Virus record (IMG/VR): IMGVR_UViG_3300038416_000738
DNA from: a virus
Direction: 5' to 3' (one strand)
Length of the DNA: 64,000 nucleotides
Shown: piece by piece, positions 701 to 49,296 of the stretch
How positions within the stretch are numbered: the stretch's first letter is position 1
Layout: every line of letters begins with the position of its first letter
The notes under the pieces: generated by a model
What the model saw: only the letters and a program-made list of their open reading frames with translations
Told to the model about the DNA's origin: nothing
Databases searched by the model: none
Translations under genes and position numbers: made by a program

Positions 701-933
701 AGGCGAAGAAAGGCGTGAGGCAAGAGGCTCGTGGTGAGGCGCTCGCGCGGCGAGCCGCGATGGTGACGGCGCTCCGCCGCGAGATCGCGAGGATCGCGGA
801 CGGCGTGACGTTCGGCGCGAAGCTCGGCGGCGGGGTCGAGGTGATTTTCACGTCCTTCGCAAAGTTCCGCGAGCACGAGCGCCGGGCCGCTCTCGTGGCC
901 TTGCCGGCGCCGTGGTTCACGGAGTGGACGTGA
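700..933 (+). CDS. hypothetical small protein
   Basis: GTG start overlapping previous stop; tail of 259..933 frame; the upstream part of that ORF is Arg-rich GC artefact. Confidence 0.3.
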   Translation, partial: KAKKGVRQEARGEALARRAAMVTALRREIARIADGVTFGAKLGGGVEVIFTSFAKFREHERRAALVALPAPWFTEWT

Positions 934-1044
934 ACGGCGCTTCACGTGCGCCGGCTCGCGCGAGCGGGGATCGCGGAGTTCGAGCGGGCATGCGGTATGC
1001 ATTGGTATGTGTTAGGATGCAACGGGATTCAAAAGGAGCCATCA

Positions 1045-1487
1045 TGAGCGAGGACGCAGAGGGCGAGAGCAATAAGTTCGGCGAGAGCGGGATCGAAGAG
1101 CTTCGACAGCTCGCGGGGATCTCCGGCTACACGCGCGAGTACGCGTTCGACGGGTTCACGGCGATCGAATGCCTGAACCTCCTCCGCGCCGTTCGCGCGT
1201 GCGAATGGGATATCTACGCCGACGCGCTCACCCCGGAGGAGCGGGAGCATGCGGCCAAGACGGGTAAGCTCTCGGAAGAGTGCGTGGCACGCCTCGATAC
1301 TGAGTTCGGAGACGACAGGGGCGTGGACGAGGACGATGACACGTGCGGTTCGTGCGGCGCGTCCCTCGTGCCGATTGCGGGCTCGCTCTGGCACAAGGTC
1401 GAGGAAGATTGTCGCGCGACCCGGGAGCCGAGCGCGGAAGAGGTCAATGCTTACGAGGTGGCTTTGGACGCGGAAGGGGGCGAGTGA
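1045..1487 (+). CDS. hypothetical acidic protein
   Basis: AAAGGAG RBS 6 nt upstream of ATG 1045; AT-richer promoter-like stretch 990-1030; sub-ORF of 912..1487. Confidence 0.55.
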
Positions 1488-1978
1488 TGGGGACGCGGGC
1501 GCTCGTGAGGGTTTTCGAGGACGGCAAAGAGATCGTGGCGATCTACCGTCAGATGGACGGGTACCCCGAAGAGCCGGGCCTCGGCGCCGAGGTGCGCGAT
1601 TTCGTCGTGAGCAAATCGCTCGTGAATGGTTTCACCGGCGACGCGAAGTTCAGGTCGTTCAACGGGATGGGGTGCCTCGCGGCGCAGCTCGTGACTTTCC
1701 TGAAGCACACGGGCCGCAAGCACTCGGTTCTCGACGGCGGCAAGTGGCTCGACATTTTGAACGGGGAATCGCCCGACATCGAAGTCGGTTCGGTCTACCT
1801 CTATCCGCCGGATACGAAAGACGTCGGCGAGGAATACGAGTACCACGTCTGCGCGGACGGCAAGGGCGGCGTCGAGGTGAAGGCTTTCGAGGTGTCTGGT
1901 CACGAGGGAGAGCGGAAGCTCGGGGCCGTCGAGATCCCCGCGAAGAAGGTCGCGAAGGAAAAGAAGGGAGGCGTGTGA
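1487..1978 (+). CDS. hypothetical protein
   Basis: ATG overlapping previous TGA (TGATG); same frame as ORF 1343..1978; protein-like composition. Confidence 0.55.
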   Translation: MGTRALVRVFEDGKEIVAIYRQMDGYPEEPGLGAEVRDFVVSKSLVNGFTGDAKFRSFNGMGCLAAQLVTFLKHTGRKHSVLDGGKWLDILNGESPDIEVGSVYLYPPDTKDVGEEYEYHVCADGKGGVEVKAFEVSGHEGERKLGAVEIPAKKVAKEKKGGV

Positions 1979-1979
1979 C

Positions 1980-2849
1980 ATGGGCGACGTGATTGGTTTC
2001 CCGGTGCCCCGTCATGACGGGAAGAAGAACGACGGGAAGAAGAACGACGCGAAGAAGAACGGCGCGTGGCTCCCGTATAGCGAGACGTCCTCGGGGCAGC
2101 TCACGCTCGACGCCGCGCGCAAGACCGTGGAGTCTGCGAAATGGGGCAAGGTCATCATGCTTGGCGGTGGATCGTCCGAGGATGAAGTCGACGACGTCGC
2201 GACGGTGATCCGGTTTCCGAGTGAGCGTGTCCGCGTGAGCGAAGGCTCGTGTGAGGGCGAGGGCGGCGAAGTCATCACGCTCCGGCCGCCGAACGCGTAT
2301 CACATGGCCTACAACCTCTACGTCCGCGCGAGTCAGCTCGACGAGAATCCCGCGACGTACGACGAGGCGGAAGCGATGTACCGGCGCGCGATCCTGCTCG
2401 ACCCGGGGCTCGCCATCGCGCACACGAATCTCGGCAACATCCTTTTTCGTCGCGGTGAGGATCGCGAGGCCGAGACGCTCTATCGCGCGGCCGTTGCGAT
2501 CGACGAACGCCAGCCGGAAGCGCATTACAACCTCGGTTACGTGATGCTCGAACGCGGCGACGCGCTCGCCGCGTCGGAGCACTTCGGCAAGGCGATCGCT
2601 CGGGACGCCCGCTTCGCGGACGCGCACTTCAACCTTGCGATGGCGTTCGAGCAGATGGGTCGGGGCGCGGAGGCGCGGACAAACTGGAAAAAGTACCTGG
2701 ATCTCGAGCCGAACGGCACGTGGGCGGACATCGCCCGCGCGCACTTGGCGCCGGTGGCGGGGTCGACGGCGGGGCCGGGGTCCGCGAGGCCGAAGCGGAG
2801 GCGCGGGCGCTCGAAGCGCGCGGAATCGGGCCTTACAGGGCCTACGTAG
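1980..2849 (+). CDS. TPR-repeat protein
   Basis: C-terminal half has consecutive TPR-like repeats (AYHMAYNLY.., AHTNLGNIL.., AHYNLGYVM.., AHFNLAMAF..); N-term KKND repeats. Confidence 0.7.
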   Translation: MGDVIGFPVPRHDGKKNDGKKNDAKKNGAWLPYSETSSGQLTLDAARKTVESAKWGKVIMLGGGSSEDEVDDVATVIRFPSERVRVSEGSCEGEGGEVITLRPPNAYHMAYNLYVRASQLDENPATYDEAEAMYRRAILLDPGLAIAHTNLGNILFRRGEDREAETLYRAAVAIDERQPEAHYNLGYVMLERGDALAASEHFGKAIARDARFADAHFNLAMAFEQMGRGAEARTNWKKYLDLEPNGTWADIARAHLAPVAGSTAGPGSARPKRRRGRSKRAESGLTGPT

Positions 2850-2866
2850 ACAGAATGTCTATATAG
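2847..2866. promoter_or_regulatory. palindromic operator TAGACA-GAA-TGTCTA followed by TATATAG
   Basis: perfect 15-bp palindrome read directly; identical element (inverse spacer) at 3828-3847; lies 55 nt upstream of ku ATG. Confidence 0.5.
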
Positions 2867-2919
2867 TTGCATGGGTCGGGAGTCGGCGTTATAAGGGTCG
2901 GAAAGGTGAGGTGAGCCAC

Positions 2920-3705
2920 ATGTCTTCGTCAGCGCGCGCAATCGGTTCAGGAACGATCTCGTTCGGGCTCGTGTCGATCCCGTTCAAGGTCTACACGACG
3001 GCGTCGTCCCACGACGCGTCGTTCAACATGCTCCACGGCAAATGCGGGAGCCGCATGAAGCAGCAGTACCTCTGCCCGGTCGAGAACGTGGTTGTCGACC
3101 GCACGGAGATGGTGAAGGGCTTCGAGTACGCCAAGGATCGGTACGTCCAGTTCACGGCCGAAGAGCTGAAGAAGCTCGAACCCGCGAAGACCGATTCGCT
3201 CGAGATCGTCGAGTTCGTGCCGGAGGAGAGCGTCGATCTCGCGTACCTCGAAAAGAGCTACTACATCGGGCCGGACAAGGGCGCCGGAAAATCGTACCAG
3301 CTCCTCGCGCAGGCGATGAAGGTCGCGAAGAAGATCGCGGTCGGCCGCTACTGGACGCGCGGGCGCGTGCAGCTCGTCCTCATTCGCCCGTACCGCGGGG
3401 GCCTCCTCATGTCGTACGCGTACTACGCGAGCGAGGTGCGCGCGTTCGAGGGCATCGCGCCGAGCGAGAAGACGGAGTTCAAGGAAATCGAGCTGGATCT
3501 CGCGGCGCAGCTCATCAAGCGGCTCGAAACCCCGGCATTCAAGGCGGACAAGTACAAGGACGAGTACCAGGACCGCATCCGGGACGCGGTGGACCAGAAG
3601 ATCGCGGGCAAAGAGATCAGCCTGCCCGACGCGGCGCCTCCGGCGATCATCGTCGACCTCTTCGAGGCGCTCAAGCGCAGCATCGCGGCGGGGATGGGGA
3701 AGTGA
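2920..3705 (+). CDS. ku: Ku DNA end-binding protein (NHEJ)
   Basis: N-terminal 'ISFGLVSIPFKVYTA' Ku core motif, ~260 aa, C-terminal extension typical of bacterial/phage Ku; GGTGAGG RBS. Confidence 0.85.
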   Translation: MSSSARAIGSGTISFGLVSIPFKVYTTASSHDASFNMLHGKCGSRMKQQYLCPVENVVVDRTEMVKGFEYAKDRYVQFTAEELKKLEPAKTDSLEIVEFVPEESVDLAYLEKSYYIGPDKGAGKSYQLLAQAMKVAKKIAVGRYWTRGRVQLVLIRPYRGGLLMSYAYYASEVRAFEGIAPSEKTEFKEIELDLAAQLIKRLETPAFKADKYKDEYQDRIRDAVDQKIAGKEISLPDAAPPAIIVDLFEALKRSIAAGMGK

Positions 3706-3754
3706 ACGAGGTCGTGAACCCGGGTTCACGGCACCGCCGTGGCCTCGGGTTCAC
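3702..3754. repeat. GTGAAC/GTTCAC cluster incl. perfect 16-bp palindrome GTGAACCCGGGTTCAC
   Basis: four copies of the hexamer (2 direct, 2 inverted) within 53 bp just after the ku stop. Confidence 0.5.
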
Positions 3755-3793
3755 GTCGCGCGGCCCAGGTCAAGGATCTCGTGGGTTTGCGAC

Positions 3794-3809
3794 TGGCACG
3801 ATGGGTGCA
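3794..3809 (+). promoter_or_regulatory. sigma54-like -24/-12 element TGGCAC-N5-GTGCA
   Basis: GG-N10-GC spacing correct, TGGCAC perfect; ~80 nt upstream of ATG 3888 with the palindromic operator between. Confidence 0.35.
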
Positions 3810-3827
3810 ATGAGGCTAAGTACCTAA

Positions 3828-3847
3828 GTAGACATTCTGTCTATATA
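3828..3847. promoter_or_regulatory. palindromic operator TAGACA-TTC-TGTCTA followed by TATATAG
   Basis: second copy of the 2847 element; 40 nt upstream of ATG 3888 with GGTGAGG RBS. Confidence 0.5.
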
Positions 3848-3887
3848 GGGTTTTGGGTTGGTGGGCTCAAAAAGGTGAGGAGCTGAC

Positions 3888-4310
3888 ATGGGTGATCGGA
3901 GCAACATCGTGGTGCGGGATAGGGACGGCAAGGACGTCGTATTCTACGCACACTGGTCCGGTAGTAGCATCGCGGCCGTCGTGCGGTGCGCACTCGCGAA
4001 GGAGTGGCGCTGGACGGACGACAACTACCTCGCACGGATCATTTTCTGCGAGCTGGTGAAGGGCCACGAGGCGGACGAGACGGGCTTCGGGATCGGGCGC
4101 TCCTTGGCGGGCGACCGCGAGCACCCGGTCGTGTTCGTGGACGTCCAGGAGCAGCGCGTCTCCTTCTGCAACGACTTCACCGAGGACGCGGCCGTCGACA
4201 CGAAGGCGAAGCTTCGCCGGGCGGACTTTACCTGGAGCTTCGCCGACTACGCGAAGATGACGGACGAAGAGGTGACGGACCTTCTGGACCGGTGTGAGGT
4301 CGAGCAGTGA
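3888..4310 (+). CDS. hypothetical protein
   Basis: ORF track; RBS AAAGGTGAGG; operator-controlled. Confidence 0.55.
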   Translation: MGDRSNIVVRDRDGKDVVFYAHWSGSSIAAVVRCALAKEWRWTDDNYLARIIFCELVKGHEADETGFGIGRSLAGDREHPVVFVDVQEQRVSFCNDFTEDAAVDTKAKLRRADFTWSFADYAKMTDEEVTDLLDRCEVEQ

Positions 4311-4909
4311 GCGCCGCGATCTCGTCGGGTACCGGGTTCATCTCGCTCAAGACGCCGGATGGCCCGGTCGCGGCGCCGTGCAGGTTCGAGCGGCCGAAGC
4401 GTCGGCGTTGGGCGTATTGCCGCGTGACCGGACAGCTTGCCAAGAAGTACGACCGCGTTCTTCGCTGGATGCAGAATATCTATGCGGATCCGGGGTGCAC
4501 GGTATCGGTTTTGGTGGCGGACGAACCGGATCCGAGGGGTCGGTGGTGGCGGTCGTCGGGCGGCGCGCTGGAACGCGTGCTCACGCGGCTCGAAGCTGTG
4601 ATGCTCGTTCCGCCGCGCGCGGGCTGGGAAGTCGACGAGGGTTGGGTCGCGAGCGGGGAGTACAAGAAGGGCGCGCCCGCCCGCGCGGAGCTTCGCTCGG
4701 AGATGCTCGAGGAGGGCGAGAGGGCGCGCGCGGGCAGCGCGAGGGCTCGCGCCGCGGAGAAGATGAAGAGGCTCGAGACGCGGGTCTCGGAGGCGCGGGA
4801 GAACATCAAGAAGTACGAGCGGCGCCAGAAGCTCGCGGCGACGCTCGTCTCGAAGTGGACGCGCAAGCTCGCGCAGCGCGAGCGGGCGCTCGCGAAGGCG
4901 AAAGTTTGA
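4307..4909 (+). CDS. hypothetical protein with C-terminal coiled coil
   Basis: GTG start overlapping previous TGA; K/R/E-rich coiled-coil C-terminus. Confidence 0.45.
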   Translation: MSAAISSGTGFISLKTPDGPVAAPCRFERPKRRRWAYCRVTGQLAKKYDRVLRWMQNIYADPGCTVSVLVADEPDPRGRWWRSSGGALERVLTRLEAVMLVPPRAGWEVDEGWVASGEYKKGAPARAELRSEMLEEGERARAGSARARAAEKMKRLETRVSEARENIKKYERRQKLAATLVSKWTRKLAQRERALAKAKV

Positions 4910-4944
4910 GCGAGTTCGTGAAAGGAAAGAAGAAGGAGAAGACC

Positions 4945-5217
4945 ATGGCCGAGGACTACAAGAGGACGAAGGTGAACATCGAGGAGCGCACGCTCATGAA
5001 GCGCATCAACCGTTTCCTCGCGGAGCAGAAGGGCGGGCGCAAGCTCTGCAAGAACAAGGCGGCGCGCTCGGGCGAAGGCTTGACCGATCGCGAGAAGAAG
5101 CTCGGCAAGTTCTACATCGTGAGCGACAAGAAGGTGGTCCAGCACCACGTCAACCTCGAGAAGTTCGCGCGCCAGATCGAGGTGCTCCGCTCGAACGAGG
5201 TGCTCCAGCCGTCCTAG
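4945..5217 (+). CDS. hypothetical small basic protein
   Basis: GAAGGAGAAG RBS then ATG 4945; K-rich non-GC-biased composition; sub-ORF of 4294..5217. Confidence 0.5.
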   Translation: MAEDYKRTKVNIEERTLMKRINRFLAEQKGGRKLCKNKAARSGEGLTDREKKLGKFYIVSDKKVVQHHVNLEKFARQIEVLRSNEVLQPS

Positions 5218-5297
5218 CGCGGCGCGCGGGTGACGCTGTTCGGTTCGGTGCGCGGAAGGGACTTGCGGGGGAACCGCGAACGACTTATAATCCTAAG

Positions 5298-7316
5298 GTG
5301 ACAAAACGGTATGATTGCGAAGAGAGGCATGAAGTGAACAAGGTGAGCAGGGCGGCGACGAAAGACAAGGCGATGGCGGTGGCGGCGGGGATCTCCGCGT
5401 TCGCGGGGATGCTCTCGCTCGCGGGCCTCTTCGGCCCCTTGGGCGACGCGATCGGGCACGTGCTCTCGGCGTCGCTCGGGGTCGTCGCTTGGGCCGGCGT
5501 CTTGATGCTCGTGCTCGGAGCCGCGTCTCTCTGGCGCGGCAAGGGTTACAAGGCTTTCCGCGGCTTCACGGATGCGGGACTCGTGCTCGTCTTCGCAACG
5601 CTCGTCCGCGTCTGGGGCGGCGATGGCGGGTTCTTGGGTGCGGGCCTCGGCGATCTCGCGGAGTCTGGGCTCGGGACCGTGGGGGCGTCTCTCATGGCGC
5701 TCTTCCTTGTTTTCCTGGTCTTCGCGTCCCGCGTCGACCTCCGCAGTATCGCGGCGCGCCGTGGTCGTAGTGGCGCGGCGCCGCTTCGTCCGGTGCGTGC
5801 GGACATGCCGCACACGCAGCCGATGTCTCCCGCGCCGGGGGCTTGGGCGGCGGAGCCGGAGTCGCTCGCGCCGGTGTCGGTCGCGGACGCCTGCTCGCAG
5901 GAAGATGCGGATGCGGGGACGTCATCGCCGGTGCCTTCGTCGTCGGTGCCTTCGTCGTCGGTGGCGTCGGAGCGGGAATCGTGGGAGCCGGAGTCGTCTT
6001 TCTCTGCGACGCTTCCTTGCGTCTCCGCTCCCGACGGGATCGGGTTCAAGAGCCGCGTTGTCCGCGAGTTCGAGAAGCCGGCGACGTCGCTTCTCTTGCG
6101 CACTGAAGCGTGCGCGGGCGCGGCCGGCGATGCGCAGCTCGCCGAAGAGTCTCGCCACCTCGTTTTGACGCTCTCGTCGTTCGACGTCGAGGCGAGCGTG
6201 CTCGCGGTGGTCCCGGGTCCGGTCGTCACGACGTTCGAGTGCGGGATCGAGGCAGGCACGAAGCTCTCGAAGGTGATGGGGCTCGAGGGGGACTTGTCGC
6301 TCGCGTTCGGCCGCAAGGTCCGCGTCGTGCCGTCGCGCCTCGGGCGCGTCGGGTTTGAGGTGCAGAACGAGGAGCGTGCTGCGGTAGGCCTTCGCGAGCT
6401 TCTCGAGGACGCGCGCTGGGAAGAGGCGAAGAAGTCGGCCTCGCTCCCCGTCGTGATCGGGCGCGACGTTCGCGGCGAGGGTGTCTACGCGGACCTCGCG
6501 ACGATGCCGCACCTCATCGTGGGCGGCGCGACGGGGTCGGGTAAGAGCGTGGGCACGAACGTTCTCTTGTCGTCGCTCCTCTTCGCGCGCTCGCCGGAAG
6601 AAGTCCGCCTCGTGCTCATCGACCCGAAGGTCGTCGAGCTTCAGCCCTACGCGGGCGTGCCGCACCTGCTCTGCCCGGTCGTGACGGAAGCGGATCGAGC
6701 GATCCGCGCGCTCTCGTGGTGCTGCGAAGAGATGGATCGTCGCTACCAGCAGCTCGCTCGCGGGGGGGTCAAGAACCTCGCGTCGTTCAACGGCAAGGTC
6801 TCGCGCACCGAGCGCATGCCGTTCATCGTGGTCGTGGTCGACGAGCTTGCCGACCTGATGATGCAGGAGAAGAAGGCCGTCGAGCCGCTCCTCGTGCGGC
6901 TCGGGCAGAAGGCGCGCGCCGCGGGCATCCACGTCGTCGTCGCCACGCAGCGCCCGTCCGTCGACGTCGTGACGGGGCTCATCAAGTCGAACTTCCCTTC
7001 GCGGGTGGCTTTTCGCACGGCGCAGGCGATTGACAGCAAAGTCGTGCTCGACGAGCAGGGCGCGGAGCACCTCCTCGGCAGGGGCGACGCGCTCGTGAAG
7101 ACCGGCGACTCGGATGCGCTCGTTCGGGTCCAGGTTCCGATGGTCACGGAGGACGAAGTCGGCGCGGTTGTCGGGCACCTTCGCTCGCAGGGCTTGCCGA
7201 ACTACGACGCGAGCATCCTCGCGGAATCCGAGCCCGTGGTGCTCGGAGACGACGGCAAGAGCGGTAAGCGGGGCAGCAAGCGCGCCGCTCGTGCGCCGGG
7301 GAAGGTGTGGTCGTGA
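5298..7316 (+). CDS. FtsK/SpoIIIE-family DNA translocase
   Basis: N-terminal multi-TM region, S/P-rich linker, C-terminal motor with Walker A GGATGSGKS, 'VVVVDELADLM' Walker B, 'ATQRPSVDV'. Confidence 0.9.
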   Translation: MTKRYDCEERHEVNKVSRAATKDKAMAVAAGISAFAGMLSLAGLFGPLGDAIGHVLSASLGVVAWAGVLMLVLGAASLWRGKGYKAFRGFTDAGLVLVFATLVRVWGGDGGFLGAGLGDLAESGLGTVGASLMALFLVFLVFASRVDLRSIAARRGRSGAAPLRPVRADMPHTQPMSPAPGAWAAEPESLAPVSVADACSQEDADAGTSSPVPSSSVPSSSVASERESWEPESSFSATLPCVSAPDGIGFKSRVVREFEKPATSLLLRTEACAGAAGDAQLAEESRHLVLTLSSFDVEASVLAVVPGPVVTTFECGIEAGTKLSKVMGLEGDLSLAFGRKVRVVPSRLGRVGFEVQNEERAAVGLRELLEDARWEEAKKSASLPVVIGRDVRGEGVYADLATMPHLIVGGATGSGKSVGTNVLLSSLLFARSPEEVRLVLIDPKVVELQPYAGVPHLLCPVVTEADRAIRALSWCCEEMDRRYQQLARGGVKNLASFNGKVSRTERMPFIVVVVDELADLMMQEKKAVEPLLVRLGQKARAAGIHVVVATQRPSVDVVTGLIKSNFPSRVAFRTAQAIDSKVVLDEQGAEHLLGRGDALVKTGDSDALVRVQVPMVTEDEVGAVVGHLRSQGLPNYDASILAESEPVVLGDDGKSGKRGSKRAARAPGKVWS

Positions 7317-7543
7317 GGAAAGTTCAAGTGGGCGGCGAGACGTGGGAGTTCACGACGGGCAAGGGCAATGCCGTCATCAAGAACCCGCGCACGGGCAAGA
7401 AGACGATCGTGAATTATTTGAAGCTCACGGGTCGCGATTGGAACACCATCGAGCGCGGGCAGTGGAAGAGGACGAGCGATGGCATGGTCACGCCGGGCCA
7501 CGTGAAGGCTTACATCGCGCGTTACCTCTCGGAGAAGTCATGA
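7307..7543 (+). CDS. hypothetical small protein
   Basis: GTG start overlapping ftsK-like stop; K/T-rich composition. Confidence 0.45.
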   Translation: MVVRKVQVGGETWEFTTGKGNAVIKNPRTGKKTIVNYLKLTGRDWNTIERGQWKRTSDGMVTPGHVKAYIARYLSEKS

Positions 7544-7680
7544 TGCCGCCGCTGTACTTCTTGATGCTCCTCGCGGTGACGGGGCTTCCGCCCGCCGTGC
7601 TCGTCTTCTGCCTCGTCGCGAACGAGGTGCGGTGGAATCGATGGCGCCGGGAGAACCTTGAAGGGGGAATGGAATCATGA
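7540..7680 (+). CDS. hypothetical small membrane protein
   Basis: ATG overlapping previous TGA; one hydrophobic helix; 46 aa. Confidence 0.3.
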   Translation: MMPPLYFLMLLAVTGLPPAVLVFCLVANEVRWNRWRRENLEGGMES

Positions 7681-8273
7681 ATCGCATGGGCTGTACGGGT
7701 GTGGTGATGGTCGTGGTAGTCGCTTGCGGGCTCTTCGCATGTGGCGGAGTCTCGGGCACGGATCTCGATGGCGGTGATCCTTTGGACGGTGGCGGCGATC
7801 CCGACGTCGTGCAGGTGGACGGTGGCCAGGGGAACGATGGACAGGGTGACGGAGCGCAGGTAGATGGCGTCGCTTCCGACGGCGGTGCGGACTCGGCGAG
7901 CGACGCGGGATCAGACGGCGACGGCGGCGTCACGTCGCCCCCGTGCGACGGCGGCTGCGGGGGCGGCCTCGCATGCTGCTCGAACAAGTGCGTGGACGAG
8001 TCGAGCGATTCCAAGAATTGCAACGGCTGCGGACTTGCTTGCACGGGGAGCAAGGGCGCGTGCAGCGCGGGGGCGTGCGTCTGCTCGATTGACCTCGGGA
8101 CGTGCTCGCACTCACCGTGCACGACGGGCGCGGCGCTCCCGAAGGGCTGCGACCCCAGTTACATCGTGACGATCACGTGCAACCTCTTCCCGTCGTGTTG
8201 CACGACGGCGTGGGACGCGACGTGCGTGAGCAACGCGGAGACGTACGGCGGCCTTGTCTGCACGGGTTGTTAG
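7677..8273 (+). CDS. Cys-rich secreted lipoprotein
   Basis: signal peptide + lipobox LFAC-G; D/G-rich linker; repeated C-x-C / NCNGCG motifs (24 Cys). Confidence 0.6.
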   Translation: MNRMGCTGVVMVVVVACGLFACGGVSGTDLDGGDPLDGGGDPDVVQVDGGQGNDGQGDGAQVDGVASDGGADSASDAGSDGDGGVTSPPCDGGCGGGLACCSNKCVDESSDSKNCNGCGLACTGSKGACSAGACVCSIDLGTCSHSPCTTGAALPKGCDPSYIVTITCNLFPSCCTTAWDATCVSNAETYGGLVCTGC

Positions 8274-8338
8274 CACGGGTTGTTAGCGCAGGGCCGACTC
8301 TCTTGTGAAGAGGCCGTGGAGGATGTATAGAGGGATAC

Positions 8339-9007
8339 ATGTCAACTCATCCCACGTACCTCCCGAAGAAGGACACTCAGCCCTGGCGCATCCTCAAGCT
8401 CCTCTCTGCGCGGATGCCGCTCACCTCCGCCCAGGTCGCCGCGGAGCTTTCGCTCGGCGTGAGGGTGACGGTGCAGGCGCTCTACCTCCTCGCCCATCGC
8501 TACGGATTCGTCTACCAGGGCAAGTCGATGAGCGGCTATCTCCTCACGAAGAAGGGCCACGCCATTGCGCGGCGCCTCGGGTTCAGCGGGAAAGCGCTCG
8601 GGAAGACGGTCGTGGAGGATTCTTCTTCTCCTTCTCCCGCATCGCCCAGGCGCGGGCACGGCGCGAAAGGCGAGGGCGGTGTGAAGCGTGTGGGGCGGCG
8701 CCAGGCGAAGCGTGGCGCCGAGAGCGTCGCCGTCGTCGCAGGTGACGACGATCTCGCGCGCATCATCCGCGAGCAGCAGGACAGTAAGCGCAAGGGAATG
8801 AGGGCCAAGCGCACAGGCACGCAGGTTCCGTCCCTGCCGGTCATCACGGGGGCGGGGGCCGGTGGGGCGGGCGCGGGCGCGAGGGCTTTCGCCGAGAAGC
8901 ATCCCGATCTCGTCAAGGAGCGCGCGGCTTGTCTCGCGCGCGTCGCGGCCATCGACGCTTACGCCGAAGCTTGTGAGAAGCTCTACGCGTCGAGCTTGGG
9001 GGGTTGA
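8339..9007 (+). CDS. putative winged-helix DNA-binding protein
   Basis: N-terminal ~90 aa resemble MarR/wHTH fold (LTSAQVAAELSL...VQALYLL); basic linker; weak. Confidence 0.45.
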   Translation: MSTHPTYLPKKDTQPWRILKLLSARMPLTSAQVAAELSLGVRVTVQALYLLAHRYGFVYQGKSMSGYLLTKKGHAIARRLGFSGKALGKTVVEDSSSPSPASPRRGHGAKGEGGVKRVGRRQAKRGAESVAVVAGDDDLARIIREQQDSKRKGMRAKRTGTQVPSLPVITGAGAGGAGAGARAFAEKHPDLVKERAACLARVAAIDAYAEACEKLYASSLGG

Positions 9008-9339
9008 GCGTGAAGTCGAAGATGAAGTCGAAGTCGGGGCGCAACGTTCCGAGCGAAGTCACGCGGTCGATCAACTTCCGGGTCCCGAAGTCCTGGGTCG
9101 GCAAGGTCGACGTACTACGAAAATCGAGCCTCGTTCCTGTGGAAGTCTCGCGCACGGCGATGTTTCGTTTCGCGCTGGGTCATGGACTCGAAATGCTCAT
9201 GAAGGGGAAGGGGAAGGGGAAGGGGAAGGGGAAGGGGAAGGGGAAGGGGAAGGGGACGGGCAAGAGCGCGATTCGCCCTGCCCGCTCGAGCAGTTCGCGT
9301 ACGCGGCGAGGTACCACGCGGAAAGCAGCACGAAGATGA
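9004..9339 (+). CDS. ribbon-helix-helix protein with (KG)9 repeat
   Basis: 'SINFRVPKSWVGKVD...RTAMFRFALGHGLEML' RHH-like; hexamer repeat encodes KGKGKG...; ends in ATGA overlap. Confidence 0.5.
   Translation: MSVKSKMKSKSGRNVPSEVTRSINFRVPKSWVGKVDVLRKSSLVPVEVSRTAMFRFALGHGLEMLMKGKGKGKGKGKGKGKGKGTGKSAIRPARSSSSRTRRGTTRKAARR
9202..9255 (+). repeat. (AAGGGG)x9 perfect hexanucleotide tandem repeat inside CDS
   Basis: counted directly; in frame = (Lys-Gly)9. Confidence 0.9.
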
Positions 9340-9557
9340 CAAGTGCGCGTCGAGTCATGGAGAAAAGAGTCCCGTTCTTCGTCGACAAGATCGCAGGCGC
9401 TTTGGGTTCGCTCAAGTGGGGCGTGTATGAGAGGATGGACTTCGGTGGGCAAGGAGAAGGGAAAGGAAAGACTCAGCTCGTCGCGTCATGGAGCAAGCGA
9501 TCCGAAGCCCGCGAGGCCGTGAGGCAGTTGAACAAGGAAGAGCGTGACAGCGGGTGA
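9336..9557 (+). CDS. hypothetical protein
   Basis: ATG in ATGA overlap with previous stop; C-terminal part of 8862..9557 frame with protein-like composition. Confidence 0.4.
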   Translation: MTSARRVMEKRVPFFVDKIAGALGSLKWGVYERMDFGGQGEGKGKTQLVASWSKRSEAREAVRQLNKEERDSG

Positions 9558-9825
9558 AACGCGCGTGAGCAAGGTTACCCTCTCGCCCAGGGCGAACGCC
9601 CGATACCTGATTCTCGAGGTCGAAGGCGACGCTAGCGTGTCGGTCTCGATCTCGAAGGAAGAGGGCCACCAGATCATCGCGCTCGAGATGGACAGCCCCG
9701 AGACATCGTCGTCACTCGGCCTCGCCCTCGTCGGTTGGCTTTCGAGGACGAGCTGGGATGGGGCGAGCGGGTTCGCGGGCAGCGAGCCTGCGAAAGCGCC
9801 GGGAAAGAGAAGGAGGCGCCGGTGA
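9544..9825 (+). CDS. hypothetical protein
   Basis: ORF track; start overlaps previous gene end. Confidence 0.35.
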   Translation: MTAGETRVSKVTLSPRANARYLILEVEGDASVSVSISKEEGHQIIALEMDSPETSSSLGLALVGWLSRTSWDGASGFAGSEPAKAPGKRRRRR

Positions 9826-9853
9826 GCGTGGGGTATCCTTCGGGACAGCGGAC

Positions 9854-10177
9854 ATGACGTGGCGTCCTAACCGGAAGCTGTACCTGTTCCACGTCGAGGA
9901 GTTCGACGCGCGACGCGAGAGTTGGTTTTATTGCGGCATCGTGCTCCTTCCCGACAACGCGACGCGGGGAGAAGTCGCGCACGCGCTCAAGGTCTTCGGG
10001 ATGGCATGCCCGAGGGAATCGGACCGCGTGTCGTGGAGTTACGTCATGCTTCCTGGCCCGGACGGCAAGGGGATGCTCCCGCGGCCGAGGGCGCACGTGC
10101 AGACCGGGGCGGGGGCGCCGATATGCCGGCTCGTGGTGAAGCCGAGCGCCGCGCGCCGCGTGCGTGAGGGCGGTTGA
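9854..10177 (+). CDS. hypothetical protein
   Basis: ATG 9854 in frame with ORF 9758..10177; composition protein-like (W/Y/F-rich). Confidence 0.45.
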   Translation: MTWRPNRKLYLFHVEEFDARRESWFYCGIVLLPDNATRGEVAHALKVFGMACPRESDRVSWSYVMLPGPDGKGMLPRPRAHVQTGAGAPICRLVVKPSAARRVREGG

Positions 10178-10250
10178 GATCGATTCTGCGAGCGGCACTC
10201 TTGACAGAAGAGGTCGTCAGACGAATACCCATTGAGTGGTTCCCAATTTG

Positions 10251-10313
10251 TTTGACGAATGATGACTTGATCTGCTAAGTCATCCTCTGCGTGTGAGAGT
10301 CTGCGTGTGAGAG
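10251..10313 (+). promoter_or_regulatory. promoter/operator region: TTGACG-N18-TAAGTC with 8-bp inverted repeat GATGACTT-N8-AAGTCATC and 13-bp direct repeat x2
   Basis: read directly in 225-bp intergenic gap upstream of the histone-like gene. Confidence 0.4.
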
Positions 10314-10402
10314 GCTCGTTTCCCGGATCGAGGAAGGACCCGCGCCATAGGTGCGCGACGGGTCCTGTTCCGGGGGCGACCGCAAGCGAAAGTGATAAGT
10401 CG

Positions 10403-11212
10403 ATGGGCAGCAAGAAGGTGAAGGTGCACGGCTCGAAGAACACGAAGACCGTTGCGAAAAAGGCGAAGGCCGTTGCGAAAAAGGCGAAGACCGTCGCGAA
10501 GCCGGTCGCGGTCGCGGCGAAGCGGGCGAAGAAGGGTGGAGCGAAGGCGGCTGCAAAGGTCGCCGTGACCGTGGCGCCGGGCTTGAAGACGCCGGGCGCC
10601 GTCGCCGCGACGTTCTCAGCCGAGCGTCCCGGGTACCTGCCGCGCGAGGGATCGCTCCCCGACATGATCTTCCGCCGGCTGATGGACAAGCCCATGCCCT
10701 ACGGCGAGCTTGCCCGGCACCTCGAAGCGGACTCCAAGCTCACGGGCGACGCGCTCACGAGCCAGCTCTCCGCGGCGCTCTACGATCTCTGCAACAAGCG
10801 CGGCGTCCTCGTTCGCGTCGACTACGACACGTTTCAGCCTGTTCCGGCGAGTCGTTCGCGCGGTGCCCTCTACACGGTCGCGGATCGTGCCCGTGCGGGG
10901 TACGAAGCGCGCAGCAAGCTCAGCGCCAAAAGGGGTGCGAGCGTGCCGACTGCCGCAGGGCCTGGACAGCTCGATTTGACGAGCTTCGGGCGCCCGATGA
11001 ACGGTGCCGCGTCGGCTGCGTCGGTTGCATCGGCGGCGACTGCGCAGGTGAGCGATGCGATGCTGATCGTGCTTCCCAAGCCCGAGAAGATGAGCGACGC
11101 GATGTACGCGGAGCTTCGCGCAGCGCGGCAGGCGGCGGCCGACCAGGTCCGTCAGGCGACGGAAGCGATCACTGCGATCGATCGCCTCCTCAAGGTTCCG
11201 AGCTTCTCCTGA
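10403..11212 (+). CDS. histone H1-like lysine/alanine-rich DNA-binding protein
   Basis: N-terminal AKKAKAVAKKAKTVAKPVAVAAKRAKKGGAKAAAK repeats typical of bacterial H1/Hc1-like proteins; globular C-terminal domain. Confidence 0.65.
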   Translation: MGSKKVKVHGSKNTKTVAKKAKAVAKKAKTVAKPVAVAAKRAKKGGAKAAAKVAVTVAPGLKTPGAVAATFSAERPGYLPREGSLPDMIFRRLMDKPMPYGELARHLEADSKLTGDALTSQLSAALYDLCNKRGVLVRVDYDTFQPVPASRSRGALYTVADRARAGYEARSKLSAKRGASVPTAAGPGQLDLTSFGRPMNGAASAASVASAATAQVSDAMLIVLPKPEKMSDAMYAELRAARQAAADQVRQATEAITAIDRLLKVPSFS

Positions 11213-16474: not shown

Positions 16475-16515
16475 AGATTCCTAAAGTTCTGCCTTGGCAC
16501 TTTTGTGCCGGGGTG

Positions 16516-16545
16516 GGTTCGTGGTTCGTGGTTCGTGGTTCGTGG
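16516..16545 (+). repeat. (GGTTCGT)x4 tandem heptamer repeat upstream of RBS
   Basis: counted directly; preceded by GGCAC-tttt-GTGCC hairpin at 16496-16509; 24 nt before ATG 16569. Confidence 0.8.
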
Positions 16546-36276: not shown

Positions 36277-36298
36277 CCGGACGAGCACGGGATGATCC

Positions 36299-36613
36299 AT
36301 GGGCATCGAATTTCCTGTCAGCGTGGAGTGCGACAAGTGTTCGAAGCGAACGACGTTTCGCGTCGTCATCACCAAGCTCAAGCCGAATGCCGAGATGCAT
36401 CTCAAGATGGTTCATGGGTGGTTGGCGACGTCGTTACCTGAGAGCGGTGAGCTTCTCGTTACGTGTCCCGACTGTAATCCGATGCTCGTGAGCATTGCGC
36501 CACCACCGCTGTCGCCATCGTCGCTCGCAGATCTCGAAGAGGTCGTTGAAGTGGTTGGCGATCCAGCTACGGATCCCACCATGCTTGCTGGTGAAGTGCG
36601 TTCGAAAAAGTGA
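36299..36613 (+). CDS. hypothetical Zn-ribbon protein
   Basis: CDKC...CPDC. Confidence 0.4.
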   Translation: MGIEFPVSVECDKCSKRTTFRVVITKLKPNAEMHLKMVHGWLATSLPESGELLVTCPDCNPMLVSIAPPPLSPSSLADLEEVVEVVGDPATDPTMLAGEVRSKK

Positions 36614-36662
36614 AATGATCGTCGTGAAGCGGGTGACGGGTGCTTCCATTCGCGCGTGAGCC

Positions 36663-36845
36663 CTAATCTTTCGCGAGCGGCATGTACCAGTAGGTGAAGT
36701 GCGAGCGCTGGATCTCTTCCCACGGAGCCTTGGGGATCTCGACGCGCATCACGCGCTTCCAAACCTCGTACGGATCGAGGTAGCGGTGGCTATCTTGCGG
36801 ATGCTTCATCGTTTTCGCTGCACGCTTCTTCATCGGCCTCTTCAC
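36663..36845 (-). CDS. hypothetical small basic protein (only minus-strand candidate)
   Basis: non-GC-biased K/W/Y-rich composition; divergent from + gene at 36940 across an AT-richer spacer. Confidence 0.35.
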   Translation of the reverse strand: MKRPMKKRAAKTMKHPQDSHRYLDPYEVWKRVMRVEIPKAPWEEIQRSHFTYWYMPLAKD

Positions 36846-36939
36846 CCGGGACGTGGTACCACAAAATGTCGTACGCTCTCCTCGTGGTCCGTCCCTTGCA
36901 TTCAGTTGGTATGAGATGTATACCTGTGGGAGTCAAGTG

Positions 36940-37107
36940 ATGAACGATGATTCGAAGAAGGCGGACGCGGGTGAGATGGATGCAGGCGAGATGGACGCGA
37001 ACGATCGCGTGACCTTGGCGATCCTGAAGGCAGAGGCCGTCCTCGGCGACGCCATCCGTGGGAAGAGGTCGAGCGTGCCGAGGCGGCGGTGGCTAAGGAA
37101 GAACTGA
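36940..37107 (+). CDS. hypothetical small acidic protein
   Basis: weak. Confidence 0.25.
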   Translation: MNDDSKKADAGEMDAGEMDANDRVTLAILKAEAVLGDAIRGKRSSVPRRRWLRKN

Positions 37108-49268: not shown

Positions 49269-49296
49269 TTGCATCCCAGATTGATTCAAGTAAAGT
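49269..49296 (+). promoter_or_regulatory. sigma70-like promoter TTGCAT-N16-TAAAGT
   Basis: AT-rich island between genes; same architecture as 42624 and 50651. Confidence 0.4.

What the first reader, a model, noticed from the sequence alone, without database searches (positions are those of the whole stretch)
2847..3847. ku bracketed by two copies of a perfect palindromic operator plus a sigma54-like element
The element TAGACA-N3-TGTCTA followed by TATATAG occurs exactly twice in 64 kb: 55 nt upstream of ku, and 40 nt upstream of the next gene. The two spacers are complementary (GAA/TTC), so the 15-mer is identical on either strand. A TGGCAC-N5-GTGCA element with correct GG-N10-GC spacing sits at 3794-3809 upstream of the second copy. 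This suggests a dimeric repressor controlling an NHEJ/early operon, possibly with enhancer-dependent sigma54 transcription.
Basis: seen in the sequence. Interest (0 to 1): 0.55.

Follow-up and report, generated by a model that had tools for sequence, protein, structure and literature searches.

The report
Operator-like palindrome on sigma-54-type phage promoter
Two copies of a 25-27 bp palindrome flank a phage-like Ku gene and most likely bind an unidentified regulator; the neighbouring sigma-54-like element is one of at least eight repeated enhancer-type promoter cassettes in a ~260 kb uncultured element, a rare way for a phage-like genome to drive its genes.

Summary
TAGACA-N3-TGTCTA+TATAG occurs only at 2847-2866 and 3829-3848, with 0 expected by chance. 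The two 15-mers are reverse complements. TGGCACGATGGGTGCA sits at 3794-3809.

The palindrome is longer than reported: CTAnnTAGACAnnnTGTCTAnnTAG, 25-27 bp. The "TATAG tail" is its outer arm.

Relatives from other metagenomes keep the outer arms and the left inner arm. The right inner arm drifts.

The sigma-54-like element holds up best. The -24/-12 core is conserved in five lineages while its spacer varies. It belongs to a repeated cassette: GT(G/C)AAC-N4-GTTCAC sites at fixed distances, then nGGCAn-N5-nTGCA. There are eight copies in the leftmost ~11 kb of the source contig, two of them in this window.

The gp140 cassette has a leader ~35 nt longer than the others. The extra sequence is the palindrome, at about +4..+30.

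The ku leader is a paralogous copy of the gp140 leader. It carries a conserved sigma-70-like TTGCAT-N17-TATAAG just downstream of its palindrome. So the "bracketing" of ku probably reflects leader duplication.

No regulator, sigma-54 gene or enhancer-binding protein was found in the 71 kb available, and there is no ligase, so this is not an NHEJ operon.

Verdict: a probable operator plugged into sigma-54-type cassettes. All evidence is computational.

The parts
906..1011 (+). Second sigma-54-type cassette in the window: GTTCAC 915-920, GTGAAC-N4-CTTCAC 930-945, GGGCATGCGGTATGCA 986-1001. It drives the operon 1044-2849, which ends with the TPR gene.
   Evidence: (nhmmer E=2.8e-10)
1980..2849 (+). 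TPR-repeat gene. Its stop codon TAG (2847-2849) forms the first three bases of the site-1 core.
   Evidence: TPR_11 E=1e-20
2842..2866 (.). Site 1: 25-bp dyad CTACGTAGACA-GAA-TGTCTATATAG (15-mer core 2847-2861).
2867..2895 (+). Sigma-70-like ku promoter: TTGCAT (2867-2872), 17-nt spacer, TATAAG (2890-2895). Inferred start is near 2902, which puts the dyad at about -60..-36.
   Evidence: Hexamers are conserved and the spacer diverges in L017/L018. TTGCAT is 7/9 intergenic on the + strand. The strict consensus scan did not call it.
2903..2911 (+). Shine-Dalgarno AAGGTGAGG of ku, paralogous to the one before gp140.
2920..3705 (+). ku (261 aa).
   Evidence: PF02735 E=1.8e-43; phrog_4873
3713..3755 (+). 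Inverted-repeat block after ku: GTGAAC-CCGG-GTTCAC (3714-3729) and GTTCAC (3749-3754), at -80/-70/-45 from the -24 element. It is a candidate enhancer (UAS) and also folds as a long hairpin.
3794..3809 (+). Sigma-54-type -24/-12 element TGGCAC-GATGG-GTGCA. Inferred start is near 3820.
3823..3849 (.). Site 2: 27-bp dyad CCTAAGTAGACA-TTC-TGTCTATATAGG (core 3829-3843), about +4..+30 of the sigma-54-type promoter. An extra adjacent unit CTAAGTAC lies at 3816-3823.
3872..3882 (+). Shine-Dalgarno AAGGTGAGGAG of gp140.
3888..5217 (+). Operon downstream of site 2: gp140 (3888-4310, phrog_31860, widespread phage family), gp200 (4307-4909) and gp90 (4945-5217). All are of unknown function.

Best explanation
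The window is the left part of a ~260 kb phage-like extrachromosomal element from peat metagenomes. Its leftmost ~13 kb is organised in short operons. Each operon is preceded by the same composite cassette: two 16-bp palindromes GT(G/C)AAC-N4-GTTCAC centred 72.5 and 47.5 bp upstream of a -24/-12 element (nGGCAn-N5-nTGCA), then a short leader. I read these as sigma-54-type promoters fired by an enhancer-binding activator that recognises the GTGAAC/GTTCAC sites (inferred). The gp140 cassette carries an extra ~35 nt in its leader. That extra sequence is the 25-27 bp dyad CTAnnTAGACAnnnTGTCTAnnTAG, at about +4..+30. I propose it is the operator of an unidentified sequence-specific dimeric or tetrameric DNA-binding protein that blocks the sigma-54 holoenzyme or early elongation (inferred). 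The ku gene entered between the TPR gene and this cassette together with a duplicated copy of the gp140 leader (dyad plus Shine-Dalgarno). A sigma-70-type promoter, TTGCAT-N17-TATAAG, lies inside that copy. At ku the same protein would therefore sit directly against the -35 hexamer and either hinder or assist RNA polymerase. This would co-regulate ku and the gp140 operon. Shown: the sequence features, their statistics, their conservation and their positions. Inferred: protein binding, the direction of regulation, sigma-54 dependence and the transcription start sites.
For: Motif statistics: 2 copies against 0.00 expected, with no other copy in 71 kb. Extended dyad symmetry is seen. Conservation: 16 of 31 columns are invariant across 7 copies from 4 lineages, while four-fold sites of the flanking genes are only 0.68-0.80 identical. 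The central triplet is GAA or its complement TTC in 6 of 7 copies, in either orientation. That is expected for a two-fold symmetric double-stranded DNA site. Position: the distance from the -24 element to the ATG is 51-59 nt in ordinary cassettes and 94 nt in the gp140 cassette, and the difference is the dyad. In relatives the same leader slot holds other palindromes: GCCACAT-N4-ATGTGGC in L020 and L023 and a different repeat in L111. This looks like exchangeable operator/regulator specificities. Sigma-54-type core: TGGCAC and TGCA are invariant and the spacer variable in window, L017, L018, L111 and L112. There are 8 cassettes in L011 and a further 13 hits in relatives, all on the gene strand and, wherever gene calls are available, just upstream of a start codon. 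GTTCAC sits at -70 and -45/-46 although the intervening sequence has diverged. ku promoter: both hexamers are conserved with a diverged spacer, and TTGCAT is strongly enriched in intergenic DNA. Precedent for sigma-54-like phage promoters: phage YuA (PMC10914365).
Against: No DNA-binding regulator could be tied to the dyad. Pfam and PHROG searches found no transcription factor, sigma factor, RNA polymerase or sigma-54 activator among 131 ORFs. The two candidates picked by eye (gp111 as RHH-like, gp222 as wHTH-like) gave only low-confidence models (pLDDT 60 and 50) and no significant fold matches. The right inner half-site is not better conserved than neutral sites: TGTCTG, TGTCGA and CGTCAC occur. 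At ku the dyad lies upstream of the promoter and could be a non-functional relic of the duplication. The cassettes are paralogues, so part of the fixed spacing may be inherited rather than selected. Most cores show a partial dyad GCAx-N5-x'TGC, and there is an extra conserved block TCGCGGGGTT just upstream; neither is typical of sigma-54 promoters. The host is unknown, and only 71 of ~261 kb could be read.
Confidence: 0.5

Rival explanations
1. The dyad works as an RNA hairpin. It would sit at the 5' end of the gp140 mRNA and between the TPR gene and ku in read-through transcripts. It could stabilise or process the message, or act as a translational operator for an RNA-binding protein.
For: Both copies lie on the transcribed strand upstream of a Shine-Dalgarno sequence. 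Predicted hairpins are -8 to -12 kcal/mol, with z-scores of -2.4 to -3.2. The A-to-G changes in L017 and L112 keep U-G pairs, and L112 forms an 11-pair stem. The whole 3703-3890 region folds unusually well (z = -5.0).
Against: There is no covariation beyond shuffled controls. L018 copies lose pairing with no compensating change. The loops are GAA in one copy and UUC in the other, which are different RNA loops but the same double-stranded DNA site. If the TTGCAT promoter is real, site 1 is not part of the ku mRNA.
Confidence: 0.2
2. The two copies are mainly a by-product of how ku was acquired. The gp140 leader was duplicated, or cassettes recombined, and the palindrome has been kept perfect by template switching or gene conversion. 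Site 1 would then have no regulatory role.
For: The ku leader and the gp140 leader are paralogous from CCTA to the ATG. ku-less relatives have the cassette directly after the TPR gene (L111) or after another gene (L112). The ku stop codon lies inside a duplicated GTGAAC (3702-3707), as the TPR stop does in L111. A ~3 kb indel between the two 260-kb relatives begins at a cassette edge, as with the PeSL cassettes of T4-like phages (PMC2839356, PMC4122927). Site 1 decays in L018.
Against: Site 1 stays a perfect dyad in both the window and L017, although neutral sites differ by 20-30%. Site 2 is retained in four lineages, so at least that copy is under constraint.
Confidence: 0.12
3. The 'sigma-54-like' core is not a sigma-54 promoter. 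It would instead be a dyad-symmetric binding site (GCAx-N5-x'TGC) or the promoter of an element-encoded polymerase or sigma factor, and the GTGAAC/GTTCAC repeats would be terminator hairpins of the upstream operons.
For: The variable positions x and x' are complementary in 15 of 21 cassettes. The repeats fold into strong hairpins directly after stop codons. No rpoN or enhancer-binding protein gene was seen. About 190 kb of the element is unread.
Against: All cassettes keep GG-N10-GC and match TGGCAC-N5-TTGCA closely. The x/x' changes within orthologues are not compensated (L018, L111, L017:3217). The hairpins lack U-tracts. The repeats keep their distance to the core to within 1 bp, which a terminator does not need.
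Confidence: 0.25
4. The dyad plus TATAG is itself a promoter for a phage RNA polymerase, either T7-like (...TATAG) or an N4-like hairpin promoter with a 3-nt loop.
For: There is a superficial resemblance: a 6-bp stem with a 3-nt loop, and CTATATAGGG.
Against: There are only two copies in 71 kb with ~140 genes. No single-subunit or giant virion RNA polymerase ORF was found; the longest ORF is 778 aa with no PHROG family hit and no RNA-polymerase family appears among the listed hits. The TAGACA-to-TATAG spacing (9 nt) is wrong for a sigma-70-type promoter.
Confidence: 0.05

Closest known systems
Palindromic repressor operators of temperate phages and plasmids (lambda/434/P22 cI-Cro operators; Arc/Mnt/MetJ-type RHH operators built from short repeated subsites)
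   Same: Dyad symmetry, 15-27 bp, repeated at neighbouring promoters, and overlapping or abutting core promoter elements. It is built from small subsites (CTAnnTAG, TAGA...TCTA). Related genomes carry different palindromes in the same slot, as with immunity specificities.
   Different: No cognate protein is identified. One copy lies downstream of a sigma-54-type start and the other upstream of a -35 hexamer. There is no adjacent divergent repressor gene. One half-site drifts in relatives.
Bacterial sigma-54 (RpoN) promoters with upstream activator sequences for enhancer-binding proteins (e.g. glnAp2/NtrC, pspA/PspF)
   Same: A -24 GG / -12 GC core that matches TGGCAC-N5-TTGCA, and two dyad sites about 70-100 bp upstream of the inferred start at fixed phase.
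   Different: Eight near-identical cassettes occur in tandem along a phage-like genome. The activator and its origin (host or element) are unknown. There is an extra conserved block, TCGCGGGGTT, and a partial dyad within the core.
Sigma-54-like promoter reported in Pseudomonas phage YuA (Ceyssens et al. 2008, as cited in PMC10914365)
   Same: A phage genome that uses a sigma-54-like promoter alongside sigma-70-like ones.
   Different: YuA is a ~58 kb siphovirus with single examples (size and morphology from my own knowledge). Here a whole block of operons carries the cassette together with enhancer-like sites and a plug-in palindrome.
PeSL composite promoter/stem-loop cassettes of T4-like phages (PMC2839356, PMC4122927)
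   Same: A repeated intergenic stem-loop plus promoter unit between small variable genes, with gene gain or loss at cassette borders (ku present or absent; ~3 kb indel).
   Different: PeSLs carry sigma-70 early promoters, whereas these carry a -24/-12 core. Recombination at the cassettes is inferred here from very few comparisons.
Phage-encoded Ku (mycobacteriophages Omega/Corndog; Mu Gam) - from my own knowledge, Pitcher et al. 2006
   Same: A stand-alone Ku homologue in a large phage-like genome, with an FtsK-like gene nearby as in cluster J mycobacteriophages.
   Different: Its regulation has not been described. Here ku has its own promoter with an operator-like dyad. No ligase is present.

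Membership tests
Palindromic transcription-factor operator | Dyad symmetry over about 14-30 bp | tested here: met
   The dyad is 25-27 bp. In this window the 6-bp inner arms are perfect and the outer arms are CTA/TAG.
Palindromic transcription-factor operator | Recurs at regulated promoters far more often than chance allows | tested here: met
   There are 2 copies against 0.00 expected. Both lie in the only two intergenic gaps around ku.
Palindromic transcription-factor operator | Overlaps or abuts core promoter elements | tested here: inconclusive
   Site 2 is at about +4..+30 of the -24/-12 promoter. Site 1 ends 1 bp before the TTGCAT -35 hexamer. The promoters and starts are inferred, not mapped.
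Palindromic transcription-factor operator | Both half-sites conserved in relatives | tested here: inconclusive
   The outer arms, the left inner arm and GTC are invariant in 7 copies. The rest of the right inner arm varies.
Palindromic transcription-factor operator | A cognate DNA-binding protein exists | tested here: not met
   No HTH or RHH family hit was found in 131 ORFs. The gp111 and gp222 models are low-confidence with no significant matches. About 190 kb of the element and the host are unread.
Sigma-54-dependent promoter | -24 GG and -12 GC exactly 10 nt apart, matching TGGCAC-N5-TTGCW | tested here: met
   3794-3809 has one mismatch to the consensus. All cassettes keep GG-N10-GC.
Sigma-54-dependent promoter | Core conserved and spacer free to vary at orthologous sites, on the gene strand at leader distance | tested here: met
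   This holds in five lineages. The core lies 51-94 nt before start codons.
Sigma-54-dependent promoter | Upstream activator sites for an enhancer-binding protein | tested here: inconclusive
   GT(G/C)AAC-N4-GTTCAC dyads are found at fixed positions -80/-70/-55/-45 from the core. Binding was not tested, and the same repeats could be hairpins.
Sigma-54-dependent promoter | RpoN and an AAA+ enhancer-binding protein available in the host or the element | not testable with these tools
   None was found in the 71 kb read. The ComM/Mg-chelatase-like AAA+ protein upstream has only a faint Sigma54_activat hit. The host is unknown.
NHEJ operon (Ku + LigD) | Ku gene | tested here: met
   PF02735 E=1.8e-43.
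NHEJ operon (Ku + LigD) | Adjacent ATP-dependent ligase, polymerase or nuclease (LigD) | tested here: not met
   No ligase family appears among the listed Pfam/PHROG hits of the 49 larger ORFs (only the 25 best families per search were shown). The neighbouring genes have no assignable function.
PeSL-like mobile regulatory cassette | Repeated stem-loop plus promoter unit between variable small genes | tested here: met
   There are 8 cassettes in ~11 kb. ku presence or absence and a ~3 kb indel occur at cassette borders.
PeSL-like mobile regulatory cassette | Sigma-70 early promoter in the unit | tested here: not met
   The unit carries a -24/-12 core, and no -35/-10 pair was found within it.
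Phage RNA-polymerase promoter (T7-like or N4 hairpin) | Cognate phage RNA polymerase gene and many promoter copies | tested here: not met
   No such ORF or family hit was found in the window, and only two copies exist.

The most novel reading that the evidence does not exclude
A ~260 kb phage-like element runs an entire block of at least 8 operons from host sigma-54 through a dedicated enhancer-binding activator that recognises GTGAAC-N4-GTTCAC. Individual cassettes would be tuned by exchangeable plug-in operators such as the TAGACA-N3-TGTCTA dyad. The same cassettes would serve as recombination joints for gaining genes such as ku.
Probability: 0.3. Interest if true: 0.7.

Novelty: new variant of a known kind. 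Interest (0 to 1): 0.5.

Why it matters
Phage transcription programmes are nearly always built on sigma-70, phage sigma factors or phage polymerases. Activator-gated sigma-54 promoters are tight, all-or-none switches and have been reported in phages only as isolated cases. A large element that carries a tandem series of such cassettes, each able to accept a separate operator, would be a new and compact way to wire conditional expression of accessory genes, including a DNA-end-binding Ku. It would also give defined DNA parts (a 16-bp enhancer site, a -24/-12 core and a 27-bp dyad) that can be tested directly. If the dyad turns out to be only a duplication relic, the finding is an ordinary promoter-region repeat.

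Tried and rejected
1. IMG/VR scans. The 20-mer gave 10 hits, all in unrelated low- or mid-GC contigs, some directly upstream of an XRE-type repressor gene or an ArdC-like gene. Their neighbouring proteins have no homologue in the window, L011 or L017. Scans with the conserved flanks gave chance hits or nothing.
2. Relatives of gp140. None were found in viral contigs. GTDB genomes gave only distant relatives and no host clue. Cluster look-up of the closest Ku proteins returned no organism names.
3. Rfam on 2700-4000 gave no match.
4. Reading the dyad as a sigma-70 promoter fails. TAGACA as -35 or TATAG as -10 gives spacings of 9 nt, or no partner hexamer.
5. LexA/Cheo-box reading of GTGAAC-N4-GTTCAC. 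The core resemblance comes from my own memory. The sites lie 70-100 bp upstream of the inferred starts and recur in every cassette, so I treat them as candidate enhancer sites. This was not tested.
6. Literature search for TAGACA/TGTCTA operators found only the unrelated GntR-type TGTCTAGACA arrangement.
7. gp111 versus the Arc repressor gave no meaningful alignment, and the PDB sequence search was empty.
8. An apparent gene-content difference between the near-identical contigs L011 and L014 was an artefact of gene calling; the DNA is 99.99% identical.
9. Paralogy between gp163 (1487-1978) and gp140 is not significant.
10. Population variants L011-L016 carry no differences in the region, so they were uninformative.
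Full report
OBSERVATION

The sequence and a pattern search confirm TAGACAGAATGTCTA at 2847-2861 and TAGACATTCTGTCTA at 3829-3843. Each is followed by TATAG. These are the only two matches in the window, and 100 shuffles gave none. Allowing two mismatches adds no site, either in the window or in the extra 7 kb of the same contig. The two 15-mers are reverse complements of each other.

Ku is at 2920-3705 (Pfam Ku E=1.8e-43). The next gene, gp140, is at 3888-4310. TGGCACGATGGGTGCA is at 3794-3809 and is the only match of this quality in the window (0.12 expected).

The element is longer than reported. CTA upstream pairs with the TAG of "TATAG". The unit is therefore CTAnnTAGACAnnnTGTCTAnnTAG, at 2842-2866 and at 3824-3848 (27 bp, 3823-3849, at site 2). 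It consists of two 8-bp mini-palindromes CTAnnTAG whose centres are 17 bp apart.

CONTEXT

- The window is identical to part of a 261,538-bp metagenome contig. Ku-carrying contigs with the same sequence occur in several ENA, JGI and Logan samples; that they are peat samples is my own reading of the sample identifiers.
- A related element lies on a 258,892-bp contig.
- Almost all of the ~135 ORFs lie on the + strand.
- Family hits are: Ku, an FtsK-like translocase, an SNF2 helicase, Dam methylase, DHFR, RNA-repair-type nucleotidyltransferase and HAD proteins, an ABC ATPase and an OmpA domain.
- No virion genes, sigma factor, RNA polymerase, ligase or recognisable transcription factor were found.
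- I therefore call it a phage-like extrachromosomal element. Its nature and its host are not established.

RELATIVES

Homologues of gp140 led to four further lineages.

- L017 and L018/L019 have the order TPR-ku-gp140.
- L112 has another gene before gp140.
- L111 has TPR directly before gp140 and no ku.
- L020-L023 are more distant and are arranged differently.
- Four-fold degenerate sites of TPR, ku and gp140 are 0.68-0.80 identical between the three ku lineages. This sets the neutral background.

THE DYAD IN RELATIVES

- Across seven copies, CTA, TAGACA, GTC and ATAG never change.
- The rest of the right inner arm varies: TGTCTG in L017 and L112, TGTCGA and CGTCAC in L018.
- The central triplet is GAA or TTC in six of seven copies, in either orientation.
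- Counting pairs on the seven copies shows 82% pairing but no covariation beyond shuffled controls. The comparison therefore does not separate a DNA site from an RNA hairpin.
- The same triplet appearing in both orientations fits a two-fold symmetric double-stranded DNA site better than an RNA loop.

THE SIGMA-54-LIKE ELEMENT

- Upstream of gp140, TGGCAC and TGCA are invariant in five lineages. The five bases between them read GATGG, GGTGT, AGCGG, GGTGG and GTAGT.
- A search for GG-N10-GC cores with flanking GTGAAC/GTTCAC found the same architecture repeatedly: eight times in L011 (the window's own contig, within ~11 kb), and also in L017, L018 and L020. Every copy is on the gene strand, and wherever gene calls are available each sits just upstream of a start codon.
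- A profile built from these cassettes finds only two copies in the window, at 906-1011 and 3715-3821, and none in the remaining 60 kb.
- The half-sites sit at -80, -70, -55 and -45 (plus or minus 1) from the core start. Each cassette keeps a different subset, and the sequence between them is unalignable.
- That amounts to two 16-bp dyads about 98 and 73 bp upstream of the inferred start. This is the layout of enhancer-dependent sigma-54 promoters (established knowledge of RpoN promoters).
- Caveats:
  - The cassettes are paralogues.
  - The repeats also fold into a strong hairpin just after the ku stop codon.
  - Most cores show a partial dyad GCAx-N5-x'TGC.
  - A block TCGCGGGGTT precedes the core.
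  - No rpoN or activator gene is visible in the 71 kb read.
- I put about 0.65 on genuine sigma-54 dependence.

WHERE THE DYAD SITS

- In ordinary cassettes the core starts 51-59 nt before the ATG. In the gp140 cassette it starts 94 nt before the ATG.
- The extra ~35 nt is the dyad, inserted after the shared block TGCAAT(A/G)AGGCTAAGT(G/A)CC.
- With the start inferred at about 3820, the dyad covers about +4..+30.
- In relatives the same slot holds other palindromes: GCCACAT-N4-ATGTGGC in L020 and L023, and CCACGT...ACGTGG with a TGGACAC repeat in L111.
- A constant promoter with exchangeable palindromes in the leader is what regulator/operator pairs of differing specificity would produce.

ku

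- The ku leader (2841-2919) aligns with the gp140 leader from CCTA through AAAGGTGAGG to the ATG, so it is a duplicate.
- Inside it lies TTGCAT-N17-TATAAG (2867-2895). Both hexamers are conserved in L017 and L018, while 7 of the 17 spacer positions differ.
- TTGCAT occurs nine times on the + strand, and seven of these are in the 10.7% of the window that is intergenic. Several are followed by TAnnnT at 16-17 nt.
- The strict consensus scanner did not call the ku promoter. TTGCAT matches TTGACA in only 3 of 6 positions, and the -10 hexamer ends in G or A.
- If the promoter is real, ku starts near 2902 and the dyad lies at -60..-36, touching the -35 hexamer.
- ku-less relatives show that the cassette predates ku. 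In L111 the TPR stop codon lies inside the first GTGAAC. In the window the ku stop lies inside a duplicated GTGAAC at 3702-3707.
- A ~3 kb indel between L011 and L017 begins at a cassette edge. This resembles the PeSL promoter/stem-loop cassettes of T4-like phages (PMC2839356, PMC4122927).
- "ku bracketed by two operators" is therefore most simply a consequence of leader duplication, not a designed bracket or loop.

MECHANISM

Best explanation (0.5): the dyad is the operator of an unidentified sequence-specific dimeric or tetrameric protein. At gp140 that protein would block the sigma-54-type promoter from just downstream of the start. At ku it would sit against the -35 hexamer and either hinder or help RNA polymerase. 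The two transcription units would thus be coupled.

Rivals:
- an RNA hairpin in the leaders (0.2);
- a duplication relic with no role at site 1 (0.12);
- a promoter for a phage polymerase (0.05).

Separately, the -24/-12 core could be something other than a sigma-54 promoter (0.25).

CANDIDATE REGULATORS

By eye, gp111 (9004-9339) has a strand-helix-helix pattern and gp222 (8339-9007) a winged-helix pattern. The models have pLDDT of 60 and 50, and neither gave a significant fold or sequence match. They remain untested suggestions.

COMPARISON WITH KNOWN SYSTEMS

- The dyad behaves like a classical phage or plasmid operator, but it fails the membership test that needs a cognate protein.
- The core and its upstream sites meet the sequence criteria for sigma-54 promoters. 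The factor requirement cannot be tested here.
- Phage use of sigma-54-like promoters has a precedent in YuA (PMC10914365). A tandem series of such cassettes with enhancer-like sites and plug-in palindromes was not found in the literature I searched.
- It is not an NHEJ operon, because no ligase is present.

VERDICT

This is a new variant of known kinds. Interest is moderate (0.5), and it comes mainly from the cassette family that the finding led to.

Noticed in passing
window 906-1011 and 3715-3821; L011 positions 920-10902 (8 copies): A repeated ~105-nt cassette: GT(G/C)AAC-N4-GTTCAC dyads at fixed offsets, then TCGCGGGGTT, then nGGCAn-N5-nTGCA. It precedes each short operon in the leftmost ~13 kb of the element and is absent from window 4-64 kb.
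   Followed up: yes
window 3794-3809 and equivalent cores in L011/L017/L018/L020: Most cores are partly dyad-symmetric (GCAx-N5-x'TGC, with x and x' complementary in 15 of 21). Changes within orthologues are not compensated. This is unexplained.
   Followed up: partly
window 3702-3707 versus L111 289-294: The ku stop codon TGA lies inside a GTGAAC copy 6 nt before the cassette's first GTGAAC. In the ku-less relative L111 the TPR stop lies inside that GTGAAC. This may mark the recombination joint of the ku insertion.
   Followed up: partly
window 16516-16545 (and the inverted repeat GGCACTTTTGTGCC just upstream, about 16493-16510): A perfect tandem repeat (GGTTCGT) x 4.3 in a 322-nt intergenic gap, preceded by a short hairpin. 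It could be iteron-like or a protein-binding array.
   Followed up: no
window 36277-36975: A 700-nt gap in + strand coding with the lowest GC in the window (0.575). It holds two of the few minus-strand ORFs my GC3-based caller picked (36434-36649, 36663-36833) and a TTGCAT-N17-TATACC promoter-like site at 36896. It may be a divergent regulatory or toxin-antitoxin-like island.
   Followed up: no
window + strand: 2867, 15558, 36896, 40317, 42637, 49269, 50651: TTGCAT is strongly enriched in intergenic DNA (7 of 9 occurrences). It often has TAnnnT 16-17 nt downstream and a short palindrome beside it, for example GTCACGTGAC after the -10 at 49269. This is a likely sigma-70-type promoter class of the element.
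   Followed up: partly
L020 3140-3185; L020 503-520; L023 7945-7962; L111 402-430: Relatives carry other perfect palindromes in the equivalent leader or promoter slots: TGACCATAAT-GGG-ATTATGGTCA inside TTGACC-N18-TAAGTA, GCCACAT-N4-ATGTGGC, and CCACGT..ACGTGG.
   Followed up: partly
L011 6840 / L017 3259-6295: A ~3 kb block of genes that includes a further cassette is present in L017 and absent in L011. Its left breakpoint is at a cassette edge.
   Followed up: partly
window 9004-9339: The 111-aa protein has an N-terminal strand-helix-helix pattern, then a (GK)n repeat and a basic tail. Only three close homologues exist in 5.8 billion proteins.
   Followed up: partly
contigs k141_837401 (261,538 bp) and contig_44825 (258,892 bp): Two independent assemblies of related elements have nearly the same length, and ku lies about 12.6 and 18 kb from one contig end. 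This hints at complete genomes with a defined end near the cassette block.
   Followed up: no
L001, L004, L008-L010 (IMG/VR, 30% GC) and L003/L006: The same 20-mer TAGACAnnnTGTCTATATAG sits directly upstream of an XRE-type repressor gene in unrelated low-GC phages. In L003/L006 it sits inside a TTGCAA-N18-TATATA promoter before an ArdC-like gene. These proteins have no homologue here.
   Followed up: yes
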